From positions 30,001 through 62,000 of the forward strand of contig NC_006138.1 of the NCBI RefSeq assembly GCF_000025945.1: a stretch of 32,000 nt of DNA, given 5' to 3'. The stretch comes from Desulfotalea psychrophila LSv54. GTDB taxonomy: Bacteria > Desulfobacterota > Desulfobulbia > Desulfobulbales > Desulfocapsaceae. Position numbers and translations under genes: made by a program. The notes under the pieces were generated by a model that saw only the letters and a program-made list of their open reading frames with translations, made no database searches and had not been told where the DNA came from. Each line of letters begins with the position of its first letter. The stretch's first letter is position 1. Below are positions 2,018 to 28,966 of this stretch, piece after piece.

Positions 2018-2205
2018 TGTTTTTGATAGCCCATCTTATGTACTGCTTTATTATCTTCATCTCCCATTCCTCTCGAACGGCCAATCACAGAAATCAGCAG
2101 AAAAATCAGCATAGGCGCAAATATCTATTTCTGACACGCAGACACCCCTAAATTAGAGATAGTAATACCCTGCTGCGATTAAAAACCTCATCACGTAAAT
2201 AGGAT

Positions 2206-3348: not shown

Positions 3349-3361
3349 TATTTCAAAATCA

Positions 3362-5266: not shown

Positions 5267-5267
5267 T

Positions 5268-5480: not shown

Positions 5481-5550
5481 TAACTCAGCATGATACACGT
5501 CAAAATTGTCAGTGCATAAAAACACCTTATACCATCATTTCAATAGATTG

Positions 5551-5559
5551 GCATCACAC
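5551..5559. repeat. Target-site duplication, left copy (GCATCACAC)
   Basis: These 9 bp directly abut the IS terminal inverted repeat and are identical to 6655-6663. Confidence 0.85.
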
Positions 5560-6654: not shown

Positions 6655-6663
6655 GCATCACAC
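6655..6663. repeat. Target-site duplication, right copy (GCATCACAC)
   Basis: Identical to 5551-5559. It lies 11 nt downstream of the acetyltransferase stop codon (6674-6676). Confidence 0.85.
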
Positions 6664-6673
6664 CCATAAATTA

Positions 6674-7183: not shown

Positions 7184-7184
7184 A

Positions 7185-12308: not shown

Positions 12309-12312
12309 AATC

Positions 12313-13002
12313 TCATACCATTTTATATGATTTTAGCATTTCAACAACTCTCTCTTTTTTGCACCACATTAACACGTCAATCATAGAAAGATACGGGACA
12401 AACTTATTATTTGCCTGTGTATAGCTAACTTCATCCATTTTAATAAATGACAGTTCAATACCGTTAGATTGAAAATAATCTTTATTATAAAGGCTCTGCC
12501 CACCTATACTATTTATATATTTATTTGCCCCAAAACGACGTGTTATATCTATCAGTCTATCCGCTGCAGACAAGCTATGATCATAGTCAAGTTCACTTGA
12601 TTTAATTATTTCTTTTTCTACCCCTAAATAAGCAAACACTTGCGAGAGGCTCTGTTTACAAACTTCAGCTAGAGACCTGTCCTCATAAGTCAGAATCGCT
12701 TCTACAATCGGGAAAATTTCGTTGAAAAAAAGTGCTTTTGAATATGACTGTTGAATAGTCGACAACACCTTTTTGACATCACTTGAAAAAGACAGTTCTT
12801 TAATTTTTTTGTTTGAGGATGCACCCGGCACAGGCACTGTAAACCGCTGAGACTGACCTTTAACGAGAATATTATTCCTATTAATGTAACCGCCTTTTAT
12901 ATAATTAACATCATCATAAACAACAAATTTATCCGCACAGTTGACTAACTGATAGTAACCAAAATATGGGAAGAGATAAGGCTGCATAACAGCTATAACC
13001 AT
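12313..13002 (-). CDS. WbqC-like family protein (function unknown, O-antigen cluster associated)
   Basis: 229 aa. The N-terminus IAVMQPYLFPYFGYYQLV is what I recognise as the WbqC-like family (Pfam PF08889) start. Confidence 0.6.
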   Translation of the reverse strand: MVIAVMQPYLFPYFGYYQLVNCADKFVVYDDVNYIKGGYINRNNILVKGQSQRFTVPVPGASSNKKIKELSFSSDVKKVLSTIQQSYSKALFFNEIFPIVEAILTYEDRSLAEVCKQSLSQVFAYLGVEKEIIKSSELDYDHSLSAADRLIDITRRFGANKYINSIGGQSLYNKDYFQSNGIELSFIKMDEVSYTQANNKFVPYLSMIDVLMWCKKERVVEMLKSYKMV

Positions 13003-13004
13003 TT

Positions 13005-14111
13005 CTACACCTTCTTAAAAAAACTAACAACTCGTTGCAAACCATTTAAGTCAAGAGTCGGATAAATAGGCAAGCACAAAACCTTACTTGCTACCTCTGT
13101 TGCGACAGAAAGGTTCTCTTTCTTACTTGAAGGTTCCCCCCTATACATAGGAAAATCACTCATCAGCGGATAAAAATAACGCCTGGCATAGATATTATTA
13201 TCTTTAAGTTTCTGATACAACACATCACGCGTAAGCGGATACTCTTCCTCCACCAAAACGGGAAAATATGAGTAATTTTGTTTCAGTGCTGAAGAAGATG
13301 GGACGGTAATTCCCTTCACATCCCTTAATTGTTCGCGATAATACTCATCAACCAAGCTACGTTGTTTTATTGCTTCATCAATATAATTAAGCTGCACCAG
13401 ACCAAAGGCACCATTAACCTCACTCATCTTGCCATTGATACCTGCAAGAGCCACCGTTGTCTCATCGACAAAGCCAAAGTTTTTCAGCTGATCAATACGC
13501 TGCTTAATCTCAGCATTTTTACAGACAATGGCTCCCCCCTCAAAGGTATTAAAGACCTTGGTGGCGTGAAAGCTCAACACACTAAGATCACCGTGGCGTA
13601 GTATGCTGCCACCCTTATCCTGCACGGCAAAGGCATGGGCTGCATCGTAAATAACTTTTAACTTATGCCTCTGAGCAATCTCATTAATGGCTTTCACATC
13701 ACAAGGATTGCCATAGCAGTGCACGGGCATAATAGCAGTCGTCGCTGGAGTGATCGCCGCTTCAACCTTAGCAGGATCGAGGTTTAGAGTCTCAGAATCA
13801 ATATCGACAAAAACAGGTTTAAGCCCATTCCAGACAATTGAGTTAGCCGTTGCAACAAAGGAGTAGGGGGTCGTAATTACCTCACCAGTAATTCCTAGTG
13901 CTTGAAGCGCAGTGATAAGCGCAATTGTTCCGTTATTAAACAAACAGATGTGCTCAACCCCAAGATAATCACAGAGGGCCTGCTCAAAACGTTGATGCAT
14001 AGGGCCACAATTTGACAAGATCTTACTCTCCCAAATTTCCTTGAGCAGAGGGGTGAACTCTTCTAAGGGTGGTAAAAAAGGTTGCGTTACATAGATATTT
14101 TTCTCTTTCAT
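13005..14111 (-). CDS. DegT/DnrJ/EryC1/StrS-family PLP aminotransferase (dTDP-4-keto-6-deoxyhexose aminotransferase, VioA/WecE/WbtI-like)
   Basis: 368 aa. [19 protein letters not shown] contains the PLP lysine. It lies directly downstream of rmlA/rmlB, with no rmlC/rmlD in the window. Confidence 0.85.
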
Positions 14112-14989
14112 TTTGCCTCCGCAATAAGGGTAAGAAGATATTTTCCATAACAGCCCTTGCTCAATCTCTGACCTACCTCCCGCACAGACTCAATAGAGAG
14201 CCAACCATTGTTGTAGGCTATCTCCTCCAAACAGGCCACCTTATAGCCCTGACGCTTCTCTATTGTCTCCACAAACTGGGCTGCTTCAAGCAGGCTCTCA
14301 TGGGTTCCCGTATCAAGCCAGGCAAAACCACGACCCAATAACTGAACATTCAGATCATTCAGGGCCAGATAAGCATTGTTGACCGAGGTTATTTCCAGCT
14401 CTCCACGGGAGGAGGGCTTAACCTCTTTCGCTATCTTAACCACCCTGTTGTCATAAAAATAGAGTCCTGTCACCGCATAGTTTGACTTAGGCTGAGCTGG
14501 TTTCTCCTCAATGGATCGTACCCGTCTCTCCTCGTCAAATTCAACTATGCCAAAGCGTGCCGGGTCTTTCACCTGGTAGGCAAAGACGGTGGCCCCTCTG
14601 CCAGACTGGGCTGTGACAACAGCCTGTTGCAACATGGGGGAAAAGCCTTGGCCATAATAGACGTTGTCACCGAGGATGAGACAGACATCATCATCACCAA
14701 TAAACTCTTCACCCAGGATAAAGGCCTGAGCCAAGCCATCGGGGCTTGGTTGCACCACATAGGAGAGATCAACACCAAACTGACTTCCATCTCCCAGGAG
14801 ACGTTGAAAACTGGCAAGGTCCTCAGGGGTGGTAATGATCAAAATCTCCCGAATACCAGCGAGCATAAGCACCGAAAGGGGATAATAGATCATGGGCTTA
14901 TCGTAGATAGGAAGGAGTTGTTTTGAGACACCCATGGTAATGGGGTAGAGACGCGTTCCTGAACCGCCTGCTAAAATAATACCTTTCAT
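14108..14989 (-). CDS. rfbA: Glucose-1-phosphate thymidylyltransferase
   Basis: 293 aa. [57 protein letters not shown] is canonical RmlA. Confidence 0.95.
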
Positions 14990-16047
14990 TATGCTCTTAC
15001 TCCTAAACGCTGACGATTATAGGAGCCATCAAGCACTCTGCTCCACCATCCTTTATTATCAAGATACCACTGAACTGTTTTACGGATGCCAGACTCAAAT
15101 GTCTCCTGGGGTCGCCAACCGAGCTCCCGTTCTATCTTGCCTGCATCAATGGCATAGCGCAGATCATGGCCGGGACGGTCAGCAACATGGCTTATCAAAT
15201 CTCTGTAGGAGCTACCCTCTTCACCAGGAACCATTTCCTGCAAAACATCACAGAGAGTATGAACAACCTCCAGATTACTCTTTTCGTTATGCCCCCCGAT
15301 ATTATAGGTCTCTCCAATTTTCCCCTGCCGAAGCACGAGAAGAAGAGCACGGGCGTGATCCTCGACATGAAGCCAATCTCGGATTTGCTGCCCATTACCA
15401 TAGATAGGTAGAGCTTTGCCTTCCAGGGCATTGAGGATCATGAGAGGAATGAGTTTCTCAGGGAATTGGTAGGGACCATAATTGTTAGAGCAGTTGGTGA
15501 TAATAGTTGGAAAACCGTAGGTCCGTTGCCATGCTCTAACCAGATGGTCACTGGCTGCCTTGGAGGCTGAGTATGGACTGCTTGGCGCATAGGAGGTCTC
15601 TTCGGTAAAGAATTCCTCAGGATCTGCAAGATCTCCATAGACCTCATCGGTTGAGACATGGTGAAAGCGAAAACACTCTCTCCTCTCTTCAGGTAGAGCA
15701 GACCAATATTTTTGAGCCACCTGTAAAATGGTGGAGGTACCCACAATATTGGTCTCTACAAAGGTTGCCGGGCCATCTATGGAGCGATCGACATGACTCT
15801 CGGCGGCCAGATGCATAACAGCATCGGGCTGGTGGATAGCAAAAACACGTACCAACTCTTCACGGTCACAGATATCCACCTGCTCAAAGAGGTAATGCTC
15901 ATTCCCGGCAACACCCTCTAGGGACTCAAGATTACCCGCATAGGTGAGTTTATCGAGATTAACGACACTGTCATCCGTATTTTCTAGTATATGGCGAATA
16001 ACCGCAGATCCTATAAAACCTGCACCGCCTGTTACTAATATTTTCAT
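14989..16047 (-). CDS. rfbB: dTDP-glucose 4,6-dehydratase
   Basis: [16 protein letters not shown]..., [15 protein letters not shown] (catalytic YxxxK), collinear with RmlB. I chose the ATG at 16047, giving 352 aa. The track ORF start at 16098 would overlap the upstream gene. The ATG at 16062 is an alternative. Confidence 0.92.
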
Positions 16048-16063
16048 AGCCCTCTGAGACATT

Positions 16064-17101
16064 TTATTTATGCCCGGAGACGGAAAGACTCTGCACATAC
16101 CAGCCCATAGCCTTCTCTATTCCCGCACCAATTTTATACTGTGGACTATATCCCAAAAGCCTTTTTATCTTAGTGGTATCTGCCTGAGAATGCCGCACAT
16201 CACCTGCACGAAAGTCACGATAGCTCGGATCTAGGTTATAGACTATGCCATGATCTGCAAGATTATGCTTTATGAGGTTGAACAGTTCATTGAGTGTTGT
16301 CCTATCGCCAACGGCAACATTGTAGACATTGTCCCTAGCCTCTTCTGTCGCTGTTGCAGCAAGGATATTTGCCTGTACTGCATTCTCTATAAAGCAAAAA
16401 TCACGGCTGGTCTCTCCATCACCATTGATAAAAACAGTTTCATCATTAATCATGGCCGCAGTCCAGAGGGGAATGACAGCCGCATAGGCACCATTGGGAT
16501 CCTGACGTTTACCCAGAATATTAAAGTAGCGAAGACCTATGGTCTTAAAACTATAGGTTCTGGCAAAGACAGAGGCGTAGAGCTCATTGACATATTTGGT
16601 TACAGCATAGGGAGAGAGGGGATTACCTATATTCTCCTCTACCTTAGGCAGGGCTGGGTGGTCACCATAGGTAGAGCTGGAGGCGGCATAGGTAAAGCTT
16701 TTCACCTCAGCATCACGAGCCGCCACAAGCATATTCAAAAACCCACTGATATTGGTATTGTTGGTGGTAATCGGGTCAACAATGGAACGAGGCACAGAAC
16801 CAAGAGCTGCCTGCTGGAGCACATAGTCAACGCCCTGACAGGCTTCTTGGCAGGCATCAAGACTACAAATATCCCCTTCAATAAAACGAAAGTTTTGCCA
16901 TTGAGCATCTGTCACCGCCCCTTCAACTTCATCAAGGTTATGCTGGTATCCTGTAACAAAATTATCGAGACCCACAACTTTTTGCCCCAGGCCAAGAAGA
17001 GTCTCTAAAAGGTTAGAGCCAATAAATCCTGCAACACCTGTGATAAGCCAGGTCTTGGGGCTATCTTTTAATTCCTGTTGTACCTCTTGGTATCTTGTCA
17101 T
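16064..17101 (-). CDS. wbpP: UDP-GlcNAc(A) C4-epimerase, WbpP/TviC type (SDR)
   Basis: 345 aa. The stretch [19 protein letters not shown]...[11 protein letters not shown]...NLDEV...[55 protein letters not shown]...[17 protein letters not shown] is near-collinear with P. aeruginosa WbpP as I recall it. Confidence 0.88.
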
Positions 17102-17109
17102 TCCTACAC

Positions 17110-18390
17110 CTATAGCCTTATATCAACAACTGCCCTGGGCAGTATATATTTAAGATCGTATACAACTGATTTTTCCCTCAGCAAATCTTGTAAACCGGAC
17201 TCTCCAAGGGCTACAAACTCATTATGAGCTACAGCCACAACTACGGCATCATACTTATTTTGCCCTGGTTTTTCTACAGGAGAAATGCCATACTCTTTTT
17301 CCGCCTCAATCTTAGAAACCCAAGGGTCATAGACATCTACCTGGATATTATACTGGGCGAGCTCCGAGATAATATCCACCACCTTGGTATTGCGCAGATC
17401 AGGACAGTTTTCCTTAAAGGTGAGACCAAGAAGGAGGACATTGGCACCTTCCACCTGAATTCGTTTCTTGATAAGCGCCTTTACAAGCTGCGAGGCAACA
17501 TAGCTTCCCATATTATCATTGATGCGACGCCCTGAGAGAATCACCTCTGGATGGTAACCCACGGATTGGGCCTTATGGGTGAGATAGTATGGGTCAACCC
17601 CGATGCAGTGTCCCCCCACCAGACCCGGTCTAAAGGGAAGGAAGTTCCACTTTGTTCCTGCTGCCTCTAAAACTTCTTCGGTATCAATACCAAGTTTATT
17701 AAAGATGATGGCAAGCTCATTGATAAGGGCAATATTCAAATCCCGTTGCGTATTTTCAATCACCTTAGCAGCCTCAGCCACCCGAATAGAAGAGGCCTTA
17801 TGGGTTCCCGCTATAATAATTGAAGAGTAGAGTTCATCCACAAAGTCGGCTATCTGCTCAGTAGAGCCCGAGGTAACCTTTTTGATCATGGTCACGCTAT
17901 GCTCTTTATCGCCGGGATTAATACGCTCTGGGCTATACCCCGCAAAAAAATCTTTATTATAGGAGAGACCTGAAACACGCTCTAAAACAGGCACACAGTT
18001 CTCTTCGGTGGCACCAGGGTAGACAGTGGACTCATATATGACAATATCACCCTTGGAGAGAACTTGGCCCAAACTCTCTGAAGCCTTTACCAGGGGAGAG
18101 AGGTCTGGACATTTATGCTCATCAATGGGGGTCGGCACAGTGACAATATAGACATTACAGTCCCGCAGATCTTCAAGGTTTGTAGAATACTGTAACTCAC
18201 TGGCCTTACTCAACTCTTCTGCTGAACATTCCAGGGTGAAGTCGCTACCAGCGACAAGATCACGGACACGGCTCTCATTTAGGTCAAAGCCAATCGTCGA
18301 GATTTTTTTACCAAACTCAACAGCCAGGGGTAAACCGACATAGCCAAGACCAACAATACCAATTTTAGTAGTATCAAGCGAATATTCCAT
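17110..18390 (-). CDS. wbpO: UDP-N-acetyl-D-glucosamine/galactosamine 6-dehydrogenase, WbpO/TviB type
   Basis: 426 aa. The N-terminal [18 protein letters not shown] is the NAD-binding motif of nucleotide-sugar dehydrogenases. It is paired with the wbpP-like gene. Confidence 0.88.
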
Positions 18391-18435
18391 ACACTGCCTT
18401 TTTCATAAATTTCTTATAATTTTTCGGATAATAGA

Positions 18436-20436
18436 CTACAGCGCCACCTTAACCAAAGCCTCGTTGACCTTGACCATCTCGGCATATTCGGGCATGAGCA
18501 CCTTTAATAAATCGCGGACCCGATCGCCATCAAAGGCCCGAGCCTCCTGTCTCAGCTCCATGACAATGGCAATGGCCTCGCTGTCGGTGAGGACCTTCTC
18601 TCCGGCCAGGACCATGATCTTGTCATGGCCGGTCTCGACAATGCCCTCGCCTTCGGTGATAAGCTCTTCATAGAGTTTTTCCCCTTCACGCAGACCACTG
18701 TACTCTATTTTTATATCCTGGTCCGGCACTAAACCTGCGAGGGCGATAAGGTTACGGGCAAGATCGGCGATAAGCACCGGTTTACCCATCTTGAGGAGAA
18801 ATATCTCCCCACCTTCGCCCATGGAAGCAGCCTGAAGGATGAGCTGGGCGGCCTCTTCAATGGACATGAAGTAACGGGTAATCTTAGGGTGAGTTACCGT
18901 AACGGGTCCACCGCGCTGGATCTGGCGGGTAAAGAGGGGAATGACCGAGCCGGAAGAGCCGAGGACATTGCCAAAGCGTACCGCCATAAAGATGGTATTA
19001 TGCTCTATCGACCTATCCTTTATAATCCTCTGCCAGATCGGGGAAAGATTTCCCTGCCAGTTCCTTTTCCGGTAGGCGGACATGAGGAGCTCTGTCATCC
19101 GTTTGGAGGCACCCATGACATTGGTGGGGCGCACAGCCTTATCGGTGGAAACCACCACAAAACGTTCTACCCCGTAGACGATGGCAGCCTCCATCAGGAG
19201 TTGGCTAGAGACAATATTATTGTCCACCGCCTGCCAGGCGTTATTTTCCACCAGGGGTACATGTTTATAGGCGGCTGCATGGAAGATCACCTGAGGCTTA
19301 TGCTGCTCAAAAACATTGATCAGCAGCTTATGGTCCTGGACCTTACCGAGAACGGGCACAATATTATCCAGATCATACTCGTGCAGGAGTTCCATCTGAA
19401 TATTATAGAGGTTCTCTTCACAGGCTTCAAAGATGATGATCTTGGCCGGGGCAAAGGTAGTTACCTGACGGACAAGTTCGGAGCCAATGGAGCCACCTCC
19501 ACCGGTGATGAGGATGTTTTTCCCGGCCAGACAGGAGCCGATCTCGTCTGTTTCCAGCTTTATCTCGGCCCGGCCCAGTAGATCCCGATAGGAGATATCA
19601 CGAATATCAGAGAGATTGGCATGGCCATCAATAATTTCGCCAAAGCTGGGGATAATCTTATAGGGCAGGCCTGTTTTCTGGCAGAGAGAGGCTATCCGTT
19701 GCATCTCCTCGCCAGTCAGCGATGCGATGGCAATGAGGAGCTCCTCAGCCTTGGTCTGCTGAGCACACTCGCCCACAAAGTCCACTCCACCCCAGATGGG
19801 GATGTTGTGAATACGCAGACCCCGCTTAGAGGGATCATCATCTACAAAGCCAACGATATCATAGCAGAGCTTGCTGTTTTCTCTGATCTCCCGCACCGTC
19901 TTCTCGGCAGCACTGCCGGCCCCAACAATGAGGAGCTTTTTACAGCTGTTGAAATAGGCCCTGCGACCAGTTTTATCCACCACATGGCGCAGGATAAAAC
20001 GAATACCCACCCGGACCCCACAGACAAGGAGAAAGGTGAGGATGGCATCAAGGACCAGAACACTTCGGGAAAACTGCATGCTGGTATCGAGGAGGAAGAG
20101 GATACCGACAATAGTCAGTGAAGAGGTAAGGACGGCCTTGATGATATTAAGCAGGTCCCTAAAGCTGGTATAGCGCCACATGCCACTGTAGAGGCCAAAG
20201 GCATAAAAGATTGGCAGGCGAACGAGGAAAATAAAGGGGATAAATACCAAAAAATGAGAGACATCTCCCGGCTGTTGCTGAAAGTCAAAGCGGATAAGAT
20301 GGGCCAGGAAGTGGGCCAGGACAATAGAGAGACAATCGGCAAGGACCAGAAACCAGGCATTTCTCTGCGAGAAACGTCTCCTGAGGAGGAGGAACTGGTG
20401 ACGCAAAAAAACTGCTATGCCGAGAATCTTTTTCAT
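18436..20436 (-). CDS. Membrane-bound polysaccharide biosynthesis protein CapD/WbpM/PglF family (UDP-GlcNAc 4,6-dehydratase)
   Basis: 666 aa from the ATG at 20436 (MKKILGIAVFL...). It has 4 N-terminal TM segments, then GKNILITGGGGSIGSEL and VVSTDKAVRPTNVMGASKR. The track ORF extension back to 20577 (MFSSSSVVN...) is a translated repeat unit and was discarded. Confidence 0.9.
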   Translation of the reverse strand: MKKILGIAVFLRHQFLLLRRRFSQRNAWFLVLADCLSIVLAHFLAHLIRFDFQQQPGDVSHFLVFIPFIFLVRLPIFYAFGLYSGMWRYTSFRDLLNIIKAVLTSSLTIVGILFLLDTSMQFSRSVLVLDAILTFLLVCGVRVGIRFILRHVVDKTGRRAYFNSCKKLLIVGAGSAAEKTVREIRENSKLCYDIVGFVDDDPSKRGLRIHNIPIWGGVDFVGECAQQTKAEELLIAIASLTGEEMQRIASLCQKTGLPYKIIPSFGEIIDGHANLSDIRDISYRDLLGRAEIKLETDEIGSCLAGKNILITGGGGSIGSELVRQVTTFAPAKIIIFEACEENLYNIQMELLHEYDLDNIVPVLGKVQDHKLLINVFEQHKPQVIFHAAAYKHVPLVENNAWQAVDNNIVSSQLLMEAAIVYGVERFVVVSTDKAVRPTNVMGASKRMTELLMSAYRKRNWQGNLSPIWQRIIKDRSIEHNTIFMAVRFGNVLGSSGSVIPLFTRQIQRGGPVTVTHPKITRYFMSIEEAAQLILQAASMGEGGEIFLLKMGKPVLIADLARNLIALAGLVPDQDIKIEYSGLREGEKLYEELITEGEGIVETGHDKIMVLAGEKVLTDSEAIAIVMELRQEARAFDGDRVRDLLKVLMPEYAEMVKVNEALVKVAL

Positions 20437-21226
20437 CCGATTTTTTTCCTTTACCTGCAGAAACACAAGAATATTATTAGATAGAACCTGCACTGTTATA
20501 GGGAAGATCGTTGGGGATTGCAAGAGGAAAAAAGCAAAAAAACAACTACAGTTAACCACAGAGGAAGAAGAGAACACGGAGAAGGACTTTTTTAATTAAA
20601 CTGCTTAAATAAAAACAACACCAACCAAAGGCAGAAAGAACAGCAGCAAGCGTAGCGACGTGGCGAGGACGGCTAACCACAGAGTAGGGGAGGACACTGA
20701 TCCCTTTTAGGTAAAGGACAGGGATTAAAAGTTAACCACTGCTTAAGAGAACACAGAGAAGGACTTTTTTAATTAAACTGCTTAAATAAAAACAACACCA
20801 ACCAAAGGCAGAAAAAGACAACTACAGTTAACCACTGCTTATGAGTACACTGATCTTTTTTAGGTAAAGGACAGGGACTAAAAGTTAACCACTGCTCTGG
20901 AGTACACTGATCCCTTTTAGGTTTAAAAGACCCTTATAGTTAGGTTTTCCCATTGCATCGATTGCAAGGCCTAAACTCACAACCAATGTTCCCAAAAGAA
21001 CTAGCCTTTTAAGCTTTACGCTTTTTAAATAATTTCCTCTGCGATCTCTGTGGTTAACAGTTTTTTTCTGCTTTTCTCGCTTTTAGGTCGTGGTTTTTTA
21101 CCCAAAAATCCTCTGTGTGCTCCGTGATCTCTGTGGTTAACTTCTTTTTTCTGCTTTTTCTCGCTGTTCCTCTCGCCTTTCGCCACTTCGCTGCTATCTT
21201 TTAGGCAGTGGTTGATGCAGTTGTCT
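20437..21226. repeat. Repeat-saturated intergenic region (5 forward units, conserved core, 3 reverse units)
   Basis: GTTAACCAC-type heads lie at 20551, 20672, 20731, 20827 and 20884. The core is at 20931-21010. GTGGTTAAC-type heads lie at 21050, 21133 and 21209 (the last degenerate, GTGGTTGAT). GC-rich companion units lie at 20641-20670 and 21172-21195. Confidence 0.85.
20635..21115. repeat. Palindromic module A, copy 1 (481 bp, carries an extra 153 bp)
   Basis: 20635-20743 is identical by eye to 22197-22305. 20897-21115 is about 95% identical to 22306-22524. The extra 20744-20896 is bounded by the 13-mer GTTAACCACTGCT (20731-20743 and 20884-20896). Confidence 0.8.
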
Positions 21227-22641: not shown

Positions 22642-23023
22642 CACAGAGAAGGACTTTTAATTAAAAAGCAGAAAACCTTAAAAATTTTAAACTACTAAGA
22701 AAAGACCCAGCCCCTCCATCAGTAGTTCACAAAAAATAAGGACAAAAAGAAAAAGTTAACCACAGAGGAGGAGGAGAACACTGATCTCTCTTTAATTAAA
22801 AAACCTAAAGCTGGAAAAAGAAGAGAATTTACGCACCTCACTCCAGTAACACAGGAGTGTTCATCTTTTAGCTTTTTAGCAGTCGCCATTCCACTACGCT
22901 CCACTGCTGCTGTTCAGTAGTTCAGCTTTTTAAATAATTTCCTCTGTGTGCTCGGTTCCAGTGGTTAGTCGCTGTTGCTTTAGCTTTTCACCAAAAATCT
23001 CTGTGTTCTTGGTGTCAGTGGTT
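22642..23023. repeat. 382-bp direct duplication, copy 2
   Basis: See 21703-22084. Confidence 0.9.
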
Positions 23024-23096
23024 GGCGTCCTCACCACTCCGCCCTGCTCCGCTGCCGCCACTTCGCTACGCTTGCTGCTGCTTTTTAAATAATTTC

Positions 23097-23123
23097 CTCT
23101 GTGCTCTCTGTGCTCTCTGTGGT
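23097..23123. repeat. 9-nt tandem repeat, 3 units (CTCTGTGCT CTCTGTGCT CTCTGTGGT)
   Basis: Read directly from the sequence. It lies 16 nt from the stop codon of the 355-aa Wzz paralogue. The paralogous site at 25011-25046 has 4 units. Confidence 0.9.
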
Positions 23124-23138
23124 TGATGTGAGATTTTA

Positions 23139-24206
23139 TTACATTGCTTCTTTACGGCGCTGAAGGGCGGTGCGGAGAAGGGCGAGGACAATGGCCAGGA
23201 AGCCGGCAAAGAGGAGTGTGGCGGCAAGAATGAGGGCCTTTTTTGGTTTTATCTTTTCCCCCTCACCCAGAGGATGGGACAGGTACTGGAATCCTTTGAG
23301 ACCGGCAAGATCAGGACTAAAATTCTGCAGCTGTTGCAGACTCGACTGTAGTTGCGTCAAGCCATAGGCCAACCCAGCAGTAGCGGGCATAGAGGCTACT
23401 CCCGCATCCTGCCCCTTGCCAGCAGTTGAGTCCTTCATCGGCCCTACCTGATTCTGCAACTGGATCAAGCTTATCTGGTTTTCCACACTATCCCTATAGC
23501 CCTTGAGAATAATTTGCTGTCCCCCACTTACCTCTGTCACAACACGCTCGTTAACAAATTGCAAAAAGCCTTCAAGCTCACGGGCCAATTTCTCATCACC
23601 ACCACCCCTTAGGCTAATGCCGAGCACGGTGGGATTGGTAATGGATTGATTTTTCTTACCCTGAGGAGCCAAGACCGTAACGGAGAGAGCCCCTTTGAAT
23701 CTGCCTAATTCAGCCTGCAGGCCCTGCTCTGCGGAAAAGGTCTTACCTGTTTTTTTCTGGTAGGCCAACCACATATCACGGGATTTCAGGAGCTGATAGA
23801 CACGGTTAAAACGGTGCTGGGCTAAGAGAGGGTTACTGCCAACAGAGGGCGTGCGCAGAACAAAGGGAAGCTCCATATTGCCATCTTCACCAATCATTTC
23901 AGAGGGAACATTCTCTAGATTTTCCAATGTATCAATCTGCTGATAGAGGGCTGGCAAGAGGGGAGAGGAGACTGCTGAAGGAATCTCTATCTCGGCCGTC
24001 ACCTCATAGGTGGATGGCAGAGCGAGAAGAAGCACAAGGGCGAGGGCACCTATGACAGATACGGCTCCACCAATAAACCAGCGCTGCTGCCAGACATCGA
24101 CAAGCAGGGAGAGGAGGTCGATCTCATCGTCTCGATAATTACTTACCGACAGGGGACACAGGTTAGGTGCTTGGATACTTGAACCTACAGGCCTAGCTTC
24201 ACTCAT
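23139..24206 (-). CDS. wzz: Wzz-type polysaccharide co-polymerase (PCP-1, O-antigen chain-length determinant), paralogue a, 355 aa
   Basis: The start ATG at 24206 lies 5 nt after GGGGAGGA. The N-terminal DDEIDLLSLLVDVWQQRWFIGGAVSVIGALALVLLLAL gives the Wzz N-terminal motif plus TM1. The C-terminal KPKKALILAATLLFAGFLAIVLALLRTALQRR gives the KP-x-x-x-LI motif plus TM2. Confidence 0.8.
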   Translation of the reverse strand: MSEARPVGSSIQAPNLCPLSVSNYRDDEIDLLSLLVDVWQQRWFIGGAVSVIGALALVLLLALPSTYEVTAEIEIPSAVSSPLLPALYQQIDTLENLENVPSEMIGEDGNMELPFVLRTPSVGSNPLLAQHRFNRVYQLLKSRDMWLAYQKKTGKTFSAEQGLQAELGRFKGALSVTVLAPQGKKNQSITNPTVLGISLRGGGDEKLARELEGFLQFVNERVVTEVSGGQQIILKGYRDSVENQISLIQLQNQVGPMKDSTAGKGQDAGVASMPATAGLAYGLTQLQSSLQQLQNFSPDLAGLKGFQYLSHPLGEGEKIKPKKALILAATLLFAGFLAIVLALLRTALQRRKEAM

Positions 24207-25061
24207 TAAAATCCTCCCCAAGAAGTTCCGTACAGAAAAATAGCTTATCTCTTATGTGTATATCATTAACAGGGTGGAATACAAGAGAAAAAAAGACAAA
24301 GAACAGTTAACCACTGCTTAGGAGAACACTGATCTTTTTTAGGATAAAAGACAGGTACTAGATGCTAGCAGTGGAGCACCGCGGAATGGCGGATACTAGA
24401 AAAAGCTGACAAACAGCAGCGAGTAGCAGTGAGTGATAACGAGTGGCGTCAGCAGCGTAGCGGCGAACGAGTGGCGAGCGGAATGGCGAAAAAAGTTAAC
24501 CAGTGCTCAGGAGAACACTGATCTTTTTTAGGTAAAGGACAGGGACTAAAAGTTAACCACTGCTCTGGAGTACACTGATCCCTTTTAGGTAAAAAAAACC
24601 TTATAGTTAGGTTTTCCCATTGCATCGGTTGTAAGGCCTAAACTCACAACCAATGCTCCTAAACAAGTTAGGCTTTTGAGCTTTAGGCTTTTAAAATAAA
24701 TTTCCTCTGTGTCCTCGGTTCCAGTGGTTAACTGCTTTTCTCTTTTTTTTAATCTTTCAAGCAGTGGTAGTGGCAGTTTACAAAAAAAACCTCTGTGTTC
24801 TCATAAGCAGTGGTCAACTTCTTTTTTCTGCTTTTTCTCGCTGTTATTCTCGCTTTTAGGCAGTCGCCACTCCACTCTGCTTCGCTGCTGCTGTGGCAGT
24901 TTACCAAAAAACCTCTGTGAACTCGGTTCCAGTGGTTGGCGTCCTCACCACTCCGCCCTGCTCCGCTGCCGCCACTTCGCTACGCTTGCTGCTGCTTTTT
25001 AAATAATTTCCTCTGTGCTCTCTGTGCTCTCTGTGCTCTCTGTGGTTGATGTGAGATTTTA
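24207..25061. repeat. Repeat-saturated intergenic region including module A copy 3 (about 24495-24732)
   Basis: F heads lie at 24306, 24495 and 24552. A GC-rich companion array lies at 24367-24489. The core is at 24599-24680. R heads lie at 24724, 24810, 24932 and 25042. Confidence 0.85.
25011..25046. repeat. 9-nt tandem repeat, 4 units (CTCTGTGCT x3 + CTCTGTGGT)
   Basis: Read directly from the sequence. It lies 16 nt from the stop codon of the 434-aa Wzz paralogue. Confidence 0.9.
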
Positions 25062-26366
25062 TTACATTGATTCTCTTCGGCGCTGGAGGGCGGTGCGGAG
25101 AAGGGCCAGGGCAACAGCAAGAAAGCAGGAGAGTAAAACTGTGGTGGCAAGGATGAGAGCTTTTTTCGGCTTTATCTTATGCCCACTTCCCGTCGCGGCA
25201 GAATAAACCTGAAGAGCATGAACTCCCTGCAGATCATCGGTGTAAGCATCCAACTGTTGCAGGCGAGAGAGAAGTCCTGGTAGTTCAGCGATATAGGCAT
25301 CATCATCCTTACGAGCCCTGAGCCCGTTAAGCTCACTACTTCCCAGTAAGAGCTCTCTCTTTTCTAGAAGGGGTTGCAGTTGCTGTGCATAAAGTTTTTT
25401 ATCGGAGATCTCTCTTAAAATCTGTATACGCTTCGCCAACACCTCGGTACCCAACAAATATACAGGCATAGCGGTTTGATCAGTTACCATTACCTTGAGA
25501 TTAGAAACATTTCTTTCAGAAATATTATCCATGGAGGTGGGCAACTTTATGCCAAGAGACTCTGCTATAGCATAATTTTCCTGCAAGCGAGTCAAACGAA
25601 CAGCACGGGATCGTAGCACCGAGGCCTTGAGGGCTGAAATTTCCATATCAACCTGTTCAAGATCCTTTTTTTGCTGAGCCAATAGACGGGTAATTCGATT
25701 CCCGCGGTCAACTGAGGCAGCATGGCGCAACAGTCCAATCTTATTATTTATTTCTTTACCCGCTTTCTGAATAACCACCTCCATCTCTTGCTCCACATAG
25801 GCAGCAGCCTTTTTATCCACAAAGAGAACAAATCCCGTCAGTCGCTGTTCTACACTCGTATTATCTCCTCCTCCCCGATAAGAGATGCGCAGCACCGAGG
25901 GATCTGAGACAGCTTTTCCCTTGATAGGTTTTGGGGCCTGAACCTGCACAGAAAGACCAACAAACTCCCCCTGCAATCCCTGAAGTTCTTCATCGGTAAA
26001 CGCCCCCTCCCTATTCCCTTGACGAAAAGTGACCCAACTATCAAAGGATTTTAAGTACTGGGAGACGATGCCAAAACGGTATGATCTAGTCAGCAAGTCC
26101 TGACCTGTAGCCACAGGCACAACCAGGGCAACACTATCGGCTTGACCTATATCCATTCTGGCCTGATAGGTCGATGGAAGGACGAGTAGCACCAGAAAAG
26201 CCACCAAGGTTACGGCCAGAACAATCTTCATAAGAAATTTTCGCTGATCCCAGATATCATGCAACAAACCGAGAAGATCTATTTCATCATTTTGAAAATA
26301 AGGCGATTGTTCTTTATCTCTTCCTCGAAATTCTCTGGCCAATAGCGCTGTCTTATCTTCTTGCAT
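25062..26366 (-). CDS. wzz: Wzz-type polysaccharide co-polymerase, paralogue b, 434 aa
   Basis: The start ATG at 26366 lies 7 nt after AGGAAGG. It has NDEIDLLGLLHDIWDQRKFLMKIVLAVTLVAFLVLLVL and a C-terminal KPKKALILATTVLLSCFLAVALALLRTALQRRR. The central region is collinear with paralogue a but carries about 80 extra heptad-like, Q/L/E/R-rich residues. Confidence 0.8.
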   Translation of the reverse strand: MQEDKTALLAREFRGRDKEQSPYFQNDEIDLLGLLHDIWDQRKFLMKIVLAVTLVAFLVLLVLPSTYQARMDIGQADSVALVVPVATGQDLLTRSYRFGIVSQYLKSFDSWVTFRQGNREGAFTDEELQGLQGEFVGLSVQVQAPKPIKGKAVSDPSVLRISYRGGGDNTSVEQRLTGFVLFVDKKAAAYVEQEMEVVIQKAGKEINNKIGLLRHAASVDRGNRITRLLAQQKKDLEQVDMEISALKASVLRSRAVRLTRLQENYAIAESLGIKLPTSMDNISERNVSNLKVMVTDQTAMPVYLLGTEVLAKRIQILREISDKKLYAQQLQPLLEKRELLLGSSELNGLRARKDDDAYIAELPGLLSRLQQLDAYTDDLQGVHALQVYSAATGSGHKIKPKKALILATTVLLSCFLAVALALLRTALQRRRESM

Positions 26367-26844
26367 AAAATACCTTCCTTGCATGGTAATAACTCATAAG
26401 AACTACAAAATAAAAAGACAACTACAGTTAACCACTGCCTTGAGGACACGGAGAAAGACTTTTTAGGTAAACTGCTTAAAAACAGAAATAAAACCTTGAA
26501 CTTTAAAATCTTTTTATCTTTAAGTTTCTTACTCCGCTTTCCTGCTGCTTTTTAAATAATTTCCTCTGTGTTCTTCAGCCAGTGGTTAATCCATTCGATT
26601 TTCTCGCTATTTCTCTCGCCTTTCGCCACTTCGCTACTACCTTTTAGGTAGTGGCTTTTTACCAAAAAATCTCTGTGTGCTTGGTTGCAGTGGTTAGCCC
26701 TTTCCTGCTGTTATATTTTCTCGCTGTTGTCGTTGCTGTTGTAGTTACTTTTCGCTTTTCGCTTTTTAAATAATTTCCTCTGTGTACCTGGTGTCAGTGG
26801 TTAACCTTTTTGGGGCAGGCACTGCGGAAAGAGAAGAGCAGGAG
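26367..26844. repeat. Repeat-saturated intergenic region
   Basis: An F head lies at 26427. R heads lie at 26582, 26690 and 26797. CTTTTTAAATAATTTCC tails lie at 26548 and 26762. A companion unit lies at 26616-26639. Confidence 0.8.
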
Positions 26845-26874
26845 GCCCCTTCCCCTGTTGAGAGGGGAAGGGGC
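26845..26874 (-). terminator. GC-rich perfect hairpin immediately downstream of the 514-aa Wzz-like gene (candidate terminator or RNA stabiliser; no U-tract)
   Basis: CCCCTTCCCCT (26846-26856) pairs perfectly with AGGGGAAGGGG (26863-26873) across a 6-nt loop. It lies 12 nt from the stop at 26886. The following sequence on the minus strand is CCTCCTGCTCTTC, not a T-run. Confidence 0.4.
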
Positions 26875-26885
26875 TGAGGCAAGGC

Positions 26886-28430
26886 CTATTTAAAGCTTTG
26901 CCCTCTTCTTCTCAGGGCAGAAAAGAGAAGGGCGGCGATAAAAATCATACCTAGTGCCAACATGCCAAAGGCTACCTCCAGTAGAATTATTTTTTTCGCT
27001 TCGTAAACCCCGGCCTGCCTCTTCTGGACTGGCCCGACAATGGTATACATCGTCTGGGATGGCTTGAGGTAGAGTTGACAAACTTCTTTATAGATAGTGC
27101 TTACTCCCTCAACTACTGCGACAAGATTCTCCTGTATTTGTAAAATATCTCCATTAACAATGGCAAATTTTTCATCTGCACTCAGGCGCTTGGCCAGGTC
27201 ATTCTCCGGAGTATTCTTCATATTCTGATAAAAACTGATATCAGACTCTACCCCGGCAAGATCAGTTCCCTCGGCAATAATACGCTTCATCAAGCCCTGA
27301 CGAAACTGTGCTTCGGCACTTTCGTTGGTCAACTTCACCAGGCGATCCAAAAAGGCATCGCCAATTTGCGGGATCATACTCCCCCCACTAGCAGACAGAC
27401 TTGAATTGCCACCAGCTCCAGAGCGAGAACTTCTGGTTGCCCTATTTTGGATATAGGCCTCCATGGCGTCCTCAACAACCCTTATACGTTTTTCAATTTC
27501 AACTCTTTTCCGATTAAGGGCATCCAACCGATAATCAATATAGAGGAGGGCCTGGTTTTTTTCCTTGAAGACCCCAAGTCCCCAAATTTTTGCAAAGAGA
27601 TTTTTAAAGGCAAACAGCTGAATATCTTTTATCTCACTCTGCAAATCGGCAATCGTTCCACGGTCGCCACGCAACAAATCAGCCCCCGGGAGTGCCTCTA
27701 CCCCCTTGGCGAATCCTTCAACCCTCTGCAGCACCAAGCGGTAGCGATCGGCGATGATCATAAACTCACTCTCCGACATATCCCGTAAAATCGCACTAGA
27801 AGAGATTATTGGAATAGAGTATTGAAAAATCCCCTTACTCTCCTTCGAATAATTGGCCCACCCCTCCAATAATTGGGTCAGAACAATCTCTGCAATATCA
27901 TAGGGAATGGCATCGCCAGCCATCCTCAGGAAATAGGGCGCCGAGGCCATTAAAGACCGCTTATCGGCAAGATACTCCTTATGCAAAACACCCCACTGCT
28001 CCGAGGACATTTTTTTAGAGGCTGTTGCTGCTAAAAATCGTTGTTCTAAAATGAGCATGCCCCTACTATCCTTAAGTACAGTAAGAGAGGCCTGAAAATC
28101 TTTAAAGCTGAGATATTCAGCAAGTTGTTTTTCTTCATAAACGGCCCGAAGAATAGGCGTTTCCAGCAGGTCTCTCACCTTAAAGCTCATGCCATTGGGA
28201 TACTCCCCGCTAGCCGCCCCGGCAAAACTAAAATGAACAGGCAGATCAACCACGCGCATCTCTTTTTTACTGAGCAAAAAGGCTGCCGAGGAGGCCATGA
28301 GGAAAAAGAGACAGGCAATAGCAATGGTGATCCATCTGCGACAGGACCATAAGTCCCTAAATATGGTAGTTAAATCTATACAATCATCATCTGCATGCCG
28401 CACAACATCAAGGGCTTTGGACTGGTCCAT
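26886..28430 (-). CDS. PCP/Wzz-like membrane protein, paralogue c, 514 aa (divergent)
   Basis: The start ATG at 28430 lies 8 nt after GGAG (MDQSKALDVV...). DDCIDLTTIFRDLWSCRRWITIAIACLFFLMASSAAFLL gives a Wzz-like N-terminal motif plus TM1. A long helical middle region follows, then the C-terminal TM ILLEVAFGMLALGMIFIAALLFSALRRR. The track extension to 28550 (..FFSVFSSSSVVN..) is translated repeat. Confidence 0.6.
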   Translation of the reverse strand: MDQSKALDVVRHADDDCIDLTTIFRDLWSCRRWITIAIACLFFLMASSAAFLLSKKEMRVVDLPVHFSFAGAASGEYPNGMSFKVRDLLETPILRAVYEEKQLAEYLSFKDFQASLTVLKDSRGMLILEQRFLAATASKKMSSEQWGVLHKEYLADKRSLMASAPYFLRMAGDAIPYDIAEIVLTQLLEGWANYSKESKGIFQYSIPIISSSAILRDMSESEFMIIADRYRLVLQRVEGFAKGVEALPGADLLRGDRGTIADLQSEIKDIQLFAFKNLFAKIWGLGVFKEKNQALLYIDYRLDALNRKRVEIEKRIRVVEDAMEAYIQNRATRSSRSGAGGNSSLSASGGSMIPQIGDAFLDRLVKLTNESAEAQFRQGLMKRIIAEGTDLAGVESDISFYQNMKNTPENDLAKRLSADEKFAIVNGDILQIQENLVAVVEGVSTIYKEVCQLYLKPSQTMYTIVGPVQKRQAGVYEAKKIILLEVAFGMLALGMIFIAALLFSALRRRGQSFK

Positions 28431-28900
28431 AACAAAACTCCATATTAAAAAACAAAAAAAACTACGGTTAACCACAGAGGAAGAGGAGAACACAGAGAAA
28501 AACATTTTATGTAAACTGCTTAAAACAAAAAGACAAGAACTATTAATCACTGGTGGAGAACACTGATTTCATTTTATGTAAACTGCAGAAAAGACAGATA
28601 CTAGATACGACAGATATAAGATACTAGATGCGAGAAAGAGCAGAAAAAGCGAAGGACAGTTAACCACTGCTTAAGAGCACACTGATTTCAGTTTAGGCAA
28701 AGGACGAAAATCTAACAGCAACCAAGGGCACGGCAAAACATCTCTGGCAACAAATCGTTAAAACTAGAGCTATCTAGCAGTTATCTTTTTACCAAAAAAT
28801 CTCTGTGTACTCTGTGAACTCTGTGGTTAACTTTTTTCTGTCTCTCTGTTCTTGATTGCCAGTGGTTAACTTTTTTTTACATTTGGCAAGGAATTGTTTA
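28431..28900. repeat. Repeat-rich divergent intergenic region between the Wzz-like gene c and nfo
   Basis: F heads lie at 28467, 28542 (degenerate) and 28659. GATACTAGAT-type short repeats lie at about 28597-28630. R heads lie at 28823 and 28862. Confidence 0.8.
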
Positions 28901-28937
28901 AAGTGGGTTTTGGGAATAATTACCAACAAGCTGTCCT

Positions 28938-28943
28938 TATAAT
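28938..28943 (+). promoter_or_regulatory. Possible -10 hexamer (TATAAT) for nfo
   Basis: A perfect TATAAT lies 24 nt upstream of the nfo ATG. No convincing -35 is present at 17-bp spacing, so this is weak. Confidence 0.25.
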
Positions 28944-28966
28944 AAAATAGCCACAAGAGGAAGAGG

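What the first reader, a model, noticed from the sequence alone, without database searches (positions are those of the whole stretch)
23139..28430. Three tandem, divergent Wzz/PCP paralogues of stepwise increasing length (355, 434, 514 aa), each in its own repeat-insulated slot
Seen:
- Three consecutive minus-strand genes share PCP-1 topology. Each has an N-terminal D-x-IDL...W motif plus TM1, a helical periplasmic middle, and a C-terminal TM followed by a basic tail.
- Paralogues a and b are clearly related at both ends (DDEIDLLSLL/NDEIDLLGLL; KPKKALILAATLL/KPKKALILATTVL) and in a mid-segment (..PTVLGISLRGGGDE.. vs ..PSVLRISYRGGGDN..).
- Paralogue b has about 80 extra coiled-coil-like residues.
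- Paralogue c is much more divergent and longer again.
- They are separated by 0.5-0.9 kb of repeats, so they do not form a tight operon.

Established: Wzz proteins set O-antigen modal chain length. Organisms with two Wzz proteins, such as P. aeruginosa Wzz1/Wzz2 or enteric WzzB/FepE, make two modal lengths.

Inference:
- This may be a three-ruler set giving three modal lengths or condition-dependent switching.
- The graded periplasmic-domain size is suggestive.
- The repeats could provide independent regulation or recombinational shuffling.
Basis: partly seen in the sequence, partly recalled or inferred. Interest (0 to 1): 0.7.

Follow-up and report, generated by a model that had tools for sequence, protein, structure and literature searches.

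The report
Three tandem polysaccharide chain-length regulator genes
Three neighbouring membrane-protein genes at the head of a Desulfotalea psychrophila O-antigen gene cluster all look like sugar-chain length regulators: two are ordinary Wzz relatives, and the third belongs to a large unnamed family of similar shape that may do the same job in many other bacteria.

Summary
The window is Desulfotalea psychrophila LSv54, and the three minus-strand genes are DP0050, DP0051 and DP0052 (355, 434 and 514 aa). Each has one N-terminal and one C-terminal membrane helix, its own Shine-Dalgarno sequence, and 519-855 nt of repeat DNA between it and its neighbour.

- **a and b:** both are Wzz-family proteins (Pfam PF02706 above threshold; the model of a matches WzzE/WzzB). 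They are old paralogues. In their subfamily, length varies by coiled-coil modules, and a lacks a ~124-residue block that b has.
- **c:** it is not a detectable sequence paralogue. It belongs to a separate family with no Pfam model (1365 cluster representatives, typically 500-570 aa; the members checked are unnamed). Its model has moderate confidence, and its best PDB matches are all Wzc/Wzz. In other phyla its relatives sit beside Wzy-type and glycosyltransferase genes.
- **Repeats:** they are MITE-like inverted-repeat elements. They also bracket nfo, ddl and nuclease genes, so they are not specific to these three genes.
- **Context:** a Wzx/Wzy-type cluster lies directly downstream.

A three-ruler, multi-modal function is plausible but untested. 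Overall this is a new variant of a known kind, of moderate interest.

The parts
23139..24206 (-). Gene a (DP0050, 355 aa): a compact Wzz/PCP-1 protein
   Evidence: Pfam Wzz scores 33.8 bits against a cut-off of 25.5; GNVR scores 24.1, below its cut-off. There are two TM segments. The AF2 model (pLDDT 65.5) has a beta/alpha base, a 55-residue helix (204-258) and a short return helix. Foldseek matches WzzE 8p3p at E 1.4e-11 and WzzB 6rbg at E 1e-10, with TM-scores of 0.44-0.52. A GGGGAGG Shine-Dalgarno sequence lies 7 nt before the ATG.
25062..26366 (-). Gene b (DP0051, 434 aa): a Wzz-family protein with an extended coiled-coil region
   Evidence: Pfam Wzz scores 34.4 bits and GNVR 25.2. NCBIfam gives partial hits to FepE and Etk at E 8e-11 and 2e-10. 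In the profile search of the PDB, residues 217-432 align to Wzc 248-456. Homologues are 354-529 aa long and differ in the number of coiled-coil modules. An AAGGAAGG Shine-Dalgarno sequence precedes the ATG.
26886..28430 (-). Gene c (DP0052, 514 aa): member of a large PCP-like family that has no Pfam model
   Evidence: Pfam Wzz reaches only E 0.12. The family profile finds 1365 cluster representatives, 625 of them at E<=1e-30, mostly 500-570 aa. The AF2 model has pLDDT 70, and its secondary-structure order is TM, beta/alpha base, long helices, beta, TM. The top Foldseek hits are Wzc, WzzB and WzzE with probability 0.92-1.0. Neighbours in other phyla are Wzy_C, GT4 and Polysacc_synt_2 genes. A GGAG Shine-Dalgarno sequence precedes the ATG.
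24207..25061 (.). a-b spacer: an array of MITE-like inverted-repeat elements
   Evidence: Repeat families D1, D2, D4 and D8 fall here, with cores at 24306, 24495 and 24552 (+) and at 24722 and 24808 (-). The element at 24545-24740 folds with z = -4.48.
26367..26885 (.). b-c spacer: one composite element bounded by terminal inverted repeats
   Evidence: Cores lie at 26427 (+) and at 26580, 26688 and 26795 (-). The fold has z = -3.26, with the two ends paired.
28431..28966 (.). Spacer between c and the divergently transcribed nfo gene, holding the same repeats
   Evidence: Shown.
22969..23261 (-). 3' end of a plus its downstream flank, homogenised with the matching part of b (24882-25184)
   Evidence: The two tracts are 84% identical over 303 nt. 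Third-codon-position identity is 0.67 in the last 30 codons, against 0.20-0.47 elsewhere.
24882..25184 (-). 3' end of b plus its downstream flank, the partner of 22969-23261
   Evidence: Shown.
297..20577 (-). Downstream Wzx/Wzy-type O-antigen or surface-polysaccharide gene cluster
   Evidence: The cluster encodes a Polysacc_synt_2 (WbpM/PglF-like) protein, Ugd, an epimerase, a GDP_Man_Dehyd/Epimerase-family dehydratase (RmlB-like), an NTP_transferase (RmlA-like), a DegT aminotransferase, WbqC, a GNAT, a Polysacc_synt flippase (Wzx-type, 9288-10832), a GT2, a hexapeptide acyltransferase, AsnB, two GT4s and a Bac_transf initiating transferase. The ORF at 7185-8348 has no Pfam hit, about 8-9 hydrophobic segments and low GC, so it is a candidate Wzy.

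Best explanation
DP0050, DP0051 and DP0052 are three kinase-less inner-membrane proteins of the polysaccharide co-polymerase (PCP) type. They sit at the head of a Wzx/Wzy-dependent surface-polysaccharide (O-antigen-type) cluster in Desulfotalea psychrophila.

**Lineages.**
- a and b are ancient paralogues within one Wzz subfamily. In that subfamily the periplasmic coiled coil is built of modules that are gained and lost.
- a is the minimal form, about the size of WzzB or WzzE.
- b carries an extra block of about 124 residues.
- c comes from a different PCP-like family that has no Pfam model. Its periplasmic domain is about the size of Wzc's, but it has no kinase.

**Proposed mechanism (inferred).** Each protein forms an oligomeric periplasmic chamber that associates with the Wzy polymerase, for which ORF 7185-8348 is the candidate. 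The three compete for Wzy. Because their chambers differ in size (261, 340 and 428 loop residues), they would favour different chain-length classes. The result would be a multi-modal or condition-dependent length distribution, by analogy with WzzB/FepE or Wzz1/Wzz2.

**Gene organisation.** The genes are probably separate transcription units. Each has its own Shine-Dalgarno sequence, and strongly structured MITE-like elements fill the gaps. Those elements are a regional feature of the genome, not a dedicated regulatory device for these genes.

**Shown:** family membership, fold, topology and genomic context.
**Inferred:** co-polymerase activity of all three, a shared substrate, and distinct modal lengths.
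For: - **Family of a and b:** Pfam and NCBIfam, the profile search of the PDB, and the model of a with its Foldseek matches.
- **Fold of c:** all of its best Foldseek hits are PCPs. hhalign gives 86% probability for the N-terminal motif plus TM1 against the a/b profile. It gives a weak but co-linear match of the C-terminal helices and TM2 to the Wzc periplasmic region, E 5e-4.
- **Context of the c family:** in Acidobacteriota, Thermoanaerobaculia, Phycisphaerales and Ignavibacteria its members have polysaccharide genes as neighbours. These include Wzy_C and a WbpM-like gene directly adjacent.
- **Topology:** two TM segments in each protein, with no cytoplasmic domain after TM2.
- **Local context:** a Wzx-type flippase, a candidate Wzy, glycosyltransferases and an initiating transferase lie downstream on the same strand.
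- **Tunable length:** coiled-coil modules are present in one to three copies among relatives of b, giving proteins of 426, 491 and 529 aa.
- **Published model:** periplasmic lumen volume has been proposed to set chain length (PMC13161533).
Against: - There are no expression or phenotype data, and no paper mentions these genes.
- c fails the Pfam Wzz threshold. Its model is only moderately confident (pLDDT 70, pTM 0.41), and TM-scores to PCPs are 0.2-0.35.
- a lacks a block that is present in most of the 16 other aligned subfamily members, and 88 of its 355 residues have pLDDT below 50. It could therefore be impaired.
- Sequence length is not a validated predictor of modal length. In the published case, lumen diameter mattered rather than outer size.
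- In the nine other loci examined, no a/b-type Wzz was found in the flanks held (up to 10 kb, much less in several loci), so cooperation between the two lineages has no precedent.
- The three proteins may serve different polymers. In enterobacteria, for example, WzzE serves ECA rather than O-antigen.
Confidence: 0.6

Rival explanations
1. Only one of the three, most likely c or b, is the working co-polymerase of this cluster. Gene a is a decaying or neofunctionalised remnant of an old duplication, kept in a repeat-ridden and recombination-prone stretch.
For: a lacks the ~124-residue coiled-coil block that b has and that most of the 16 other aligned subfamily members have in whole or part. It has long low-confidence segments at 94-123 and 255-278. 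The surrounding DNA holds a truncated PD-(D/E)XK copy, perfect 300-nt duplicates and MITE-like elements. An IS remnant lies inside the downstream operon.
Against: a has an intact 355-codon ORF and a strong Shine-Dalgarno sequence. It keeps the DDEIDL motif, both TM segments and the KPKK motif. Its size equals that of canonical WzzB and WzzE, and its model matches them at E 1e-11. The 3' conversion tract preserves the reading frame.
Confidence: 0.15
2. The three PCPs serve different glycans, so there is no three-ruler set acting on one polymer. For example, c would pair with the adjacent cluster, while a and b would pair with Wzy-dependent polymers encoded elsewhere. This would resemble WzzB for O-antigen and WzzE for ECA in enterobacteria.
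For: Relatives of c occur without any a/b-type Wzz in the flanks held (up to 10 kb), next to Wzy_C and glycosyltransferase genes. Relatives of b sit alone in a housekeeping context, LysE, deaminase, Wzz, FabG, FabD, far from any glycan cluster. The two lineages therefore normally work independently.
Against: All three lie together, on one strand, immediately upstream of a single Wzx/Wzy cluster. No second polymerase or flippase is seen in the 32-kb window.
Confidence: 0.2
3. c is not a chain-length regulator. It would instead be a Wzc-like periplasmic scaffold or export adaptor without a kinase, linking polymerisation to an outer-membrane export channel.
For: The best Foldseek hits for c are Wzc, including Wza-Wzc complexes. 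Its periplasmic loop of 428 residues is about as long as the part of solved Wzc that lies before its second membrane segment (the a/b profile's C-terminal TM region aligns to Wzc ~434-456), not WzzB-sized. The weak hhalign match is also to the Wzc periplasmic region.
Against: No Wza/OPX or BY-kinase gene was found in the window. None appeared among the 25 commonest Pfam families in neighbours of c relatives. The adjacent genes there are Wzy_C and glycosyltransferases.
Confidence: 0.15

Closest known systems
PCP-1 O-antigen co-polymerases that coexist in one cell: WzzB/FepE/WzzE of Salmonella and E. coli (PDB 6rbg, 9ski, 8bhw) and Wzz1/Wzz2 of P. aeruginosa
   Same: They have two TM helices at the ends, the N-terminal DEIDL-type motif, a periplasmic alpha/beta base with a long helical hairpin, and no kinase. 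They are associated with Wzx/Wzy pathways, and several paralogues act in one cell (established knowledge).
   Different: From my own knowledge, the enteric and Pseudomonas paralogues are at separate loci. Here three genes lie in tandem at one cluster. b (434 aa) and c (514 aa) are longer than any solved PCP-1, which are at most 392 residues including tags. c does not meet the Pfam Wzz threshold.
Wzc (PCP-2a), periplasmic and TM part (PDB 7nhr, 9r62)
   Same: It is the best sequence-profile hit for the a/b profile (E 2e-17) and the best fold hit for c. Its periplasmic domain is of similar size to those of b and c.
   Different: None of the three has the cytoplasmic BY-kinase domain and tyrosine-rich tail. 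Only about 12-15 residues follow TM2. No Wza is found nearby.
XrtA-system chain length determinant (TIGR03007, 498 positions); from my own knowledge also kinase-less long PCPs such as GumC and PssP2
   Same: These are kinase-less PCPs of about 450-500 aa that work with Wzy-dependent exopolysaccharide systems. They are similar in length to c.
   Different: c gives no hit to TIGR03007. a and b give only marginal N-terminal hits, at E 0.02 and 0.005. No PEP-CTERM or XrtA genes are seen in the window.

Membership tests
PCP-1 (Wzz) family | Two transmembrane helices, one near each terminus, enclosing a large periplasmic domain | tested here: met
   Hydropathy scan: a 45-63 and 325-343, b 45-63 and 404-422, c 34-52 and 481-499, with no other segments. 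The AF2 secondary structure agrees for a and c.
PCP-1 (Wzz) family | N-terminal Wzz domain (Pfam PF02706) above the gathering score | tested here: met
   Met for a (33.8 bits) and b (34.4 bits) against a cut-off of 25.5. NOT met for c (13.2 bits, E 0.12). Only 4 of 43 c-family members touch the model at E<0.01.
PCP-1 (Wzz) family | C-terminal Pro/Gly-rich (GNVR-type) motif overlapping TM2 | tested here: inconclusive
   GNVR PF13807 scores 24.1 for a and 25.2 for b, just under the cut-off of 27.7. c gives no hit. a and b carry KIKPKKALIL before TM2, whereas c has AKKIILL without the proline.
PCP-1 (Wzz) family | Periplasmic fold: alpha/beta base domain plus a long antiparallel helical hairpin | tested here: met
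   Met for a: Foldseek matches to WzzE, WzzB, FepE and Wzc have probability 1.0, E down to 1.4e-11 and TM-scores of 0.44-0.52.
PCP-1 (Wzz) family | No cytoplasmic tyrosine-kinase domain (this distinguishes PCP-1 from PCP-2a) | tested here: met
   The proteins end 12-15 residues after TM2. No kinase domain appears in any Pfam scan of the window.
PCP-1 (Wzz) family | Genetic association with a Wzx/Wzy-dependent pathway | tested here: met
   A Wzx-type flippase at 9288-10832, a candidate Wzy at 7185-8348 (polytopic, no Pfam hit), glycosyltransferases and Bac_transf lie on the same strand downstream.
PCP-1 (Wzz) family | Ring oligomer (octamer or dodecamer) and a measurable effect on modal chain length | not testable with these tools
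   This needs biochemistry or cryo-EM, and LPS gels of mutants.
c-type PCP-like family (unnamed) | Full-length match to the family profile, with its conserved motifs (G-x-Y-P-N-G after the first strand, LPGA, IPQ-G-SFLDRL, FRQ, NLNP) | tested here: met
   c matches the 43-member profile at E 5e-144 over positions 8-531. The invariant and near-invariant columns are listed. There are 1365 representatives at E<=1e-3.

The most novel reading that the evidence does not exclude
The c-type proteins are an unrecognised class of polysaccharide co-polymerase: kinase-less, with a Wzc-sized periplasmic chamber. They would act as the Wzy partner in phyla such as Acidobacteriota, Ignavibacteriota and Planctomycetota. 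In D. psychrophila one such protein has been combined with two classical Wzz paralogues of different coiled-coil length. The result would be a three-chamber set producing a tri-modal or temperature- or condition-switched O-antigen.
Probability: 0.25. Interest if true: 0.6.

Novelty: new variant of a known kind. Interest (0 to 1): 0.4.

Why it matters
- If c-type proteins are co-polymerases, a family with more than a thousand cluster representatives gains a function. Wzy-dependent clusters in several poorly studied phyla would also gain their missing length regulator.
- The a/b pair, together with relatives of b that carry one to three coiled-coil modules, forms a natural series. It could test the recent proposal that the periplasmic chamber size of a co-polymerase sets polysaccharide length (PMC13161533).
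- Beyond that, multiple Wzz proteins in one cell are well known, and RefSeq already annotates two of these three genes as Wzz-family.

Tried and rejected
- **Sequence searches of c and its family against the PDB:** these found nothing useful.
- **hhalign of the c family against the a/b alignment:** it aligned only the N-terminal motif and TM1. Against the Wzc N-terminal halves it gave a weak, co-linear match, E 5e-4 with probability 31%. Neither result proves homology on its own.
- **The search for related loci with the 43-sequence alignment:** The 4-sequence alignment was used instead.
- **Contigs carrying the closest c homologues (L001-L003):** they were short or uninformative.
- **Sigma-70 promoter scan:** 9 sites were found against 10.6 expected, so there is no evidence for individual promoters. 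Terminator-like hairpins numbered 17 against 9.8 expected, and several of them are simply the repeat units.
- **Rfam:** no family matched at gathering scores anywhere in the window.
- **Literature:** nothing was found on DP0050-52, on D. psychrophila LPS, or on the repeat core sequence.
- **'Recent tandem duplication' of a and b:** rejected. Third-codon-position identity is low, about 0.2-0.47, outside the 3' tract, and blastn finds nothing else between the two genes.
- **'Repeats as a dedicated insulator for the Wzz genes':** rejected. The same elements bracket housekeeping genes.


Full report
**Identity of the window and check of the observation**

The window comes from Desulfotalea psychrophila LSv54. 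Gene c is DP0052 in the protein database, b is a RefSeq D. psychrophila protein on the 3.52-Mb chromosome, and exact look-ups give DP0050, DP0051 and DP0052. The three minus-strand ORFs are 23139-24206 (a, 355 aa), 25062-26366 (b, 434 aa) and 26886-28430 (c, 514 aa).

Each gene has a good Shine-Dalgarno sequence 7-9 nt upstream of its ATG. Each protein has exactly two hydrophobic segments, one near each end. The loops between them are 261, 340 and 428 residues long. The intergenic gaps are 855 nt and 519 nt.

**Genes a and b**

Both pass the Pfam Wzz gathering score, at 33.8 and 34.4 bits against 25.5. Both fall just short for the C-terminal GNVR motif. NCBIfam gives only partial, end-restricted hits to the WzzB, FepE, Wzc and Etk models. 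A profile built from a, b and two homologues hits solved structures:

| Solved structure | E-value |
|---|---|
| Wzc | 2e-17 |
| WzzE | 1.7e-10 |
| FepE | 1e-9 |
| WzzB | 2.7e-8 |

The AF2 model of a has pLDDT 65.5. It shows TM1, an alpha/beta base, a 55-residue helix, a disordered loop, a 20-residue return helix, two short strands and TM2. It matches full-length WzzE and WzzB at E 1e-11 to 1e-10, with TM-scores of 0.44-0.52. RefSeq already names a and b as Wzz-family proteins.

a and b are 41% identical over 301 alignable columns. Third-codon-position identity is only 0.2-0.47 over most of the gene, so the duplication is old. The exception is the 3' end. The last ~123 coding nt, plus about 170 nt downstream, are 84% identical between the two genes (22969-23261 against 24882-25184). 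Third-position identity in the last 30 codons is 0.67. This is most simply explained by gene conversion through the shared flanking repeats.

The length difference between a and b is not simply 80 added residues. In a 17-member alignment of the subfamily (354-529 aa), length changes through the copy number of coiled-coil modules. The module 'AERDRLSxIExIKEEDAQKIRxINDQI...' is present one to three times, and a second module, 'DDDPFIPEIV...LKTLEARQ', one or two times. Gene a lacks the whole block, about 124 residues relative to b. It has its own insertion of about 33 residues in the base domain, and that insertion is predicted to be disordered. In this subfamily, then, a is the reduced form.

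**Gene c**

c is not a detectable sequence paralogue of a or b. BLASTP finds only the N-terminal DDxIDL motif with TM1, and the C-terminal TM with its basic tail. Pfam Wzz gives E 0.12.

The word-indexed search found only three relatives, at 25-27% identity. A profile of these against 1.84 billion cluster representatives found 1365 proteins at E<=1e-3, 625 of them at E<=1e-30. Nearly all of the best 150 were full-length matches of 500-570 aa. The members checked are named 'hypothetical protein' or carry no name. Only 4 of 43 touch Pfam Wzz at E<0.01, and no other Pfam family recurs among them. Conserved motifs include G-x-Y-P-N-G, LPGA, IPQ-G-SFLDRL, FRQ and NLNP.

The AF2 model of c has pLDDT 70 and pTM 0.41, from an alignment of only four sequences. 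Its order of elements is the PCP order: TM1, a strand, an alpha/beta base, several long helices (43, 51 and 37 residues), two strands and TM2. The top twelve Foldseek hits in the PDB are all PCPs (Wzc, WzzB 6rbg, WzzE), with probabilities of 0.69-1.0. TM-scores are only 0.2-0.35, so the match is local rather than global.

Profile-profile comparison supports the N-terminal motif and TM1 at 86% probability. It weakly supports the C-terminal helices and TM2 against the Wzc periplasmic region, at E 5e-4.

Genomic context adds independent support. In nine MAG loci, 65 neighbouring ORFs from six of them were scanned. The MAGs are Ignavibacteria, Acidobacteriota, Thermoanaerobaculia, Phycisphaerales and a gammaproteobacterium. 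The neighbours were rich in polysaccharide genes:

| Pfam family among neighbours | ORFs matching |
|---|---|
| GT4-type glycosyltransferases | 5 |
| Sugar dehydratases/epimerases | 4 |
| DegT aminotransferases | 3 |
| Polysacc_synt_2 | 2 |
| Wzy_C | 2 |
| AsnB | 2 |
| Flippase | 1 |

In two loci the immediate neighbours are a Wzy_C protein, or a WbpM-like gene followed by a Wzy_C protein. No a/b-type Wzz was found in the flanks held for any of these loci (up to 10 kb; several contigs give much less). Two loci carry a second c-type copy in tandem. I conclude that c is a remote, kinase-less, PCP-like protein from an undescribed family. Its co-polymerase function is inferred, not shown.

**Context in the window**

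Downstream on the same strand (297-20577) lies a typical Wzx/Wzy-type cluster:

- a WbpM/PglF-like dehydratase and Ugd;
- an epimerase, an RmlB-like dehydratase (GDP_Man_Dehyd/Epimerase families) and an RmlA-like nucleotidyltransferase (NTP_transferase);
- an aminotransferase, WbqC and a GNAT;
- a Polysacc_synt flippase (Wzx-type);
- a GT2, a hexapeptide acyltransferase and AsnB;
- two GT4s and a Bac_transf initiating transferase.

ORF 7185-8348 has no Pfam match, about 8-9 hydrophobic segments and about 30% GC. It is the candidate Wzy. No Wza/OPX or BY-kinase gene is present.

**The repeats**

The spacers are made of MITE-like elements. Each is bounded by imperfect terminal inverted repeats of about 35-50 nt that begin with GTTAACCACWG. 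The core occurs 32 times against 0.8 expected. All but one copy lie within 20551-30672, and the remaining one (a 1-mismatch match at 8007) falls in the operon.

Read on the plus strand, every gene in that stretch lies between '...CWGTGGTTAAC' on its left and 'GTTAACCACWG...' on its right. This holds whatever the gene's orientation. It holds for the three PCP genes, and also for nfo, ddl, the PD-(D/E)XK gene at 21227-21679 and its truncated copy at 30061-30300.

Three copies of about 180 nt are nearly identical. The elements fold into long hairpins well beyond shuffled controls, with z = -4.5 and -3.3. They could terminate or stabilise transcripts, but that is an inference. The promoter scan was not above chance, and Rfam has no match at gathering scores. 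The 'slots' are real, but they are a regional property of the genome and not specific to the PCP genes.

**Interpretation**

The best-supported reading is three PCP-type proteins from two lineages at the head of one Wzy-dependent cluster. A recent cryo-EM study proposes that the periplasmic lumen volume of the co-polymerase sets O-antigen length. It reports a FepE lumen 3.6 times that of WzzB, and it notes that lumen diameter rather than outer size makes the difference (PMC13161533). Graded loop sizes of 261, 340 and 428 residues fit that idea but do not establish it.

The rival readings cannot be excluded with sequence data:

- a is an impaired remnant.
- The three proteins serve different polymers.
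- c is a Wzc-like scaffold rather than a length regulator.

No paper mentions these genes.

**Verdict**

- Novelty: a new variant of a known kind.
- The most useful by-product is the recognition of the large c-type family as PCP-like.
- Interest is moderate, 0.4.

Noticed in passing
window 20551-30672: A family of MITE-like elements is bounded by imperfect inverted repeats that start with GTTAACCACWG (32 core hits against 0.8 expected). They fill nearly all intergenic DNA in this stretch and bracket every gene whatever its strand, including nfo and ddl. The operon at 297-20500 has only one 1-mismatch core match, at 8007. Near-identical copies of about 180 nt lie at 20884-21058, 22293-22466 and 24552-24732. 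The elements fold with z = -4.5 and -3.3. Genome-wide abundance could not be checked.
   Followed up: partly
window 21698-21997 and 22637-22936: Two 300-nt copies that are 100% identical lie 939 nt apart in the gene-poor stretch between the PD-(D/E)XK gene and gene a. This points to a very recent segmental duplication. Each copy carries the same 61-aa ORF, which is probably not a real gene.
   Followed up: no
window 21227-21679 and 30061-30300: A PD-(D/E)XK nuclease-family gene (Pfam PDDEXK_3, E 3e-41) is embedded in the repeats. A second, truncated copy 8.8 kb away (79-aa ORF) is 86-91% identical at the nucleotide level over about 420 nt.
   Followed up: partly
window 5267-6673: A degraded insertion sequence lies inside the polysaccharide operon, between the AsnB-like gene and the hexapeptide acyltransferase gene. 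Its fragmented ORFs hit DDE transposase domains: PF01609 at E 2e-7 and PF13737 at E 7.5e-5.
   Followed up: partly
window 7000-13000: The core of the polysaccharide cluster has low GC (0.29-0.38, against about 0.46-0.50 in the flanks). It contains the flippase, a GT2 and a polytopic ORF with no Pfam hit (7185-8348, candidate Wzy). This is typical of laterally exchanged O-unit processing genes.
   Followed up: partly
alignment A5 (relatives of b: P0159-P0162 and others): In the Wzz subfamily of b, protein length steps from 426 to 491/494 to 529 aa. The steps come from tandem duplication of a coiled-coil module of about 33 residues (AERDRLSxIExIKEEDAQKIRxINDQI...) and of a second module. This forms a natural length series of periplasmic coiled coils.
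   Followed up: partly
L013 1566-3050 and L014 1597-2922: Relatives of b from metagenomes sit in a conserved housekeeping context: LysE, cytidine/tRNA deaminase, Wzz, FabG, FabD, L27/L21. They are not in a glycan cluster.
   Followed up: no
L008 1-2927 and L009 9719-12897: c-type genes occur as tandem pairs in two of the nine other loci. One upstream copy is split across reading frames, and one downstream copy covers only the C-terminal 200 profile positions.
   Followed up: partly
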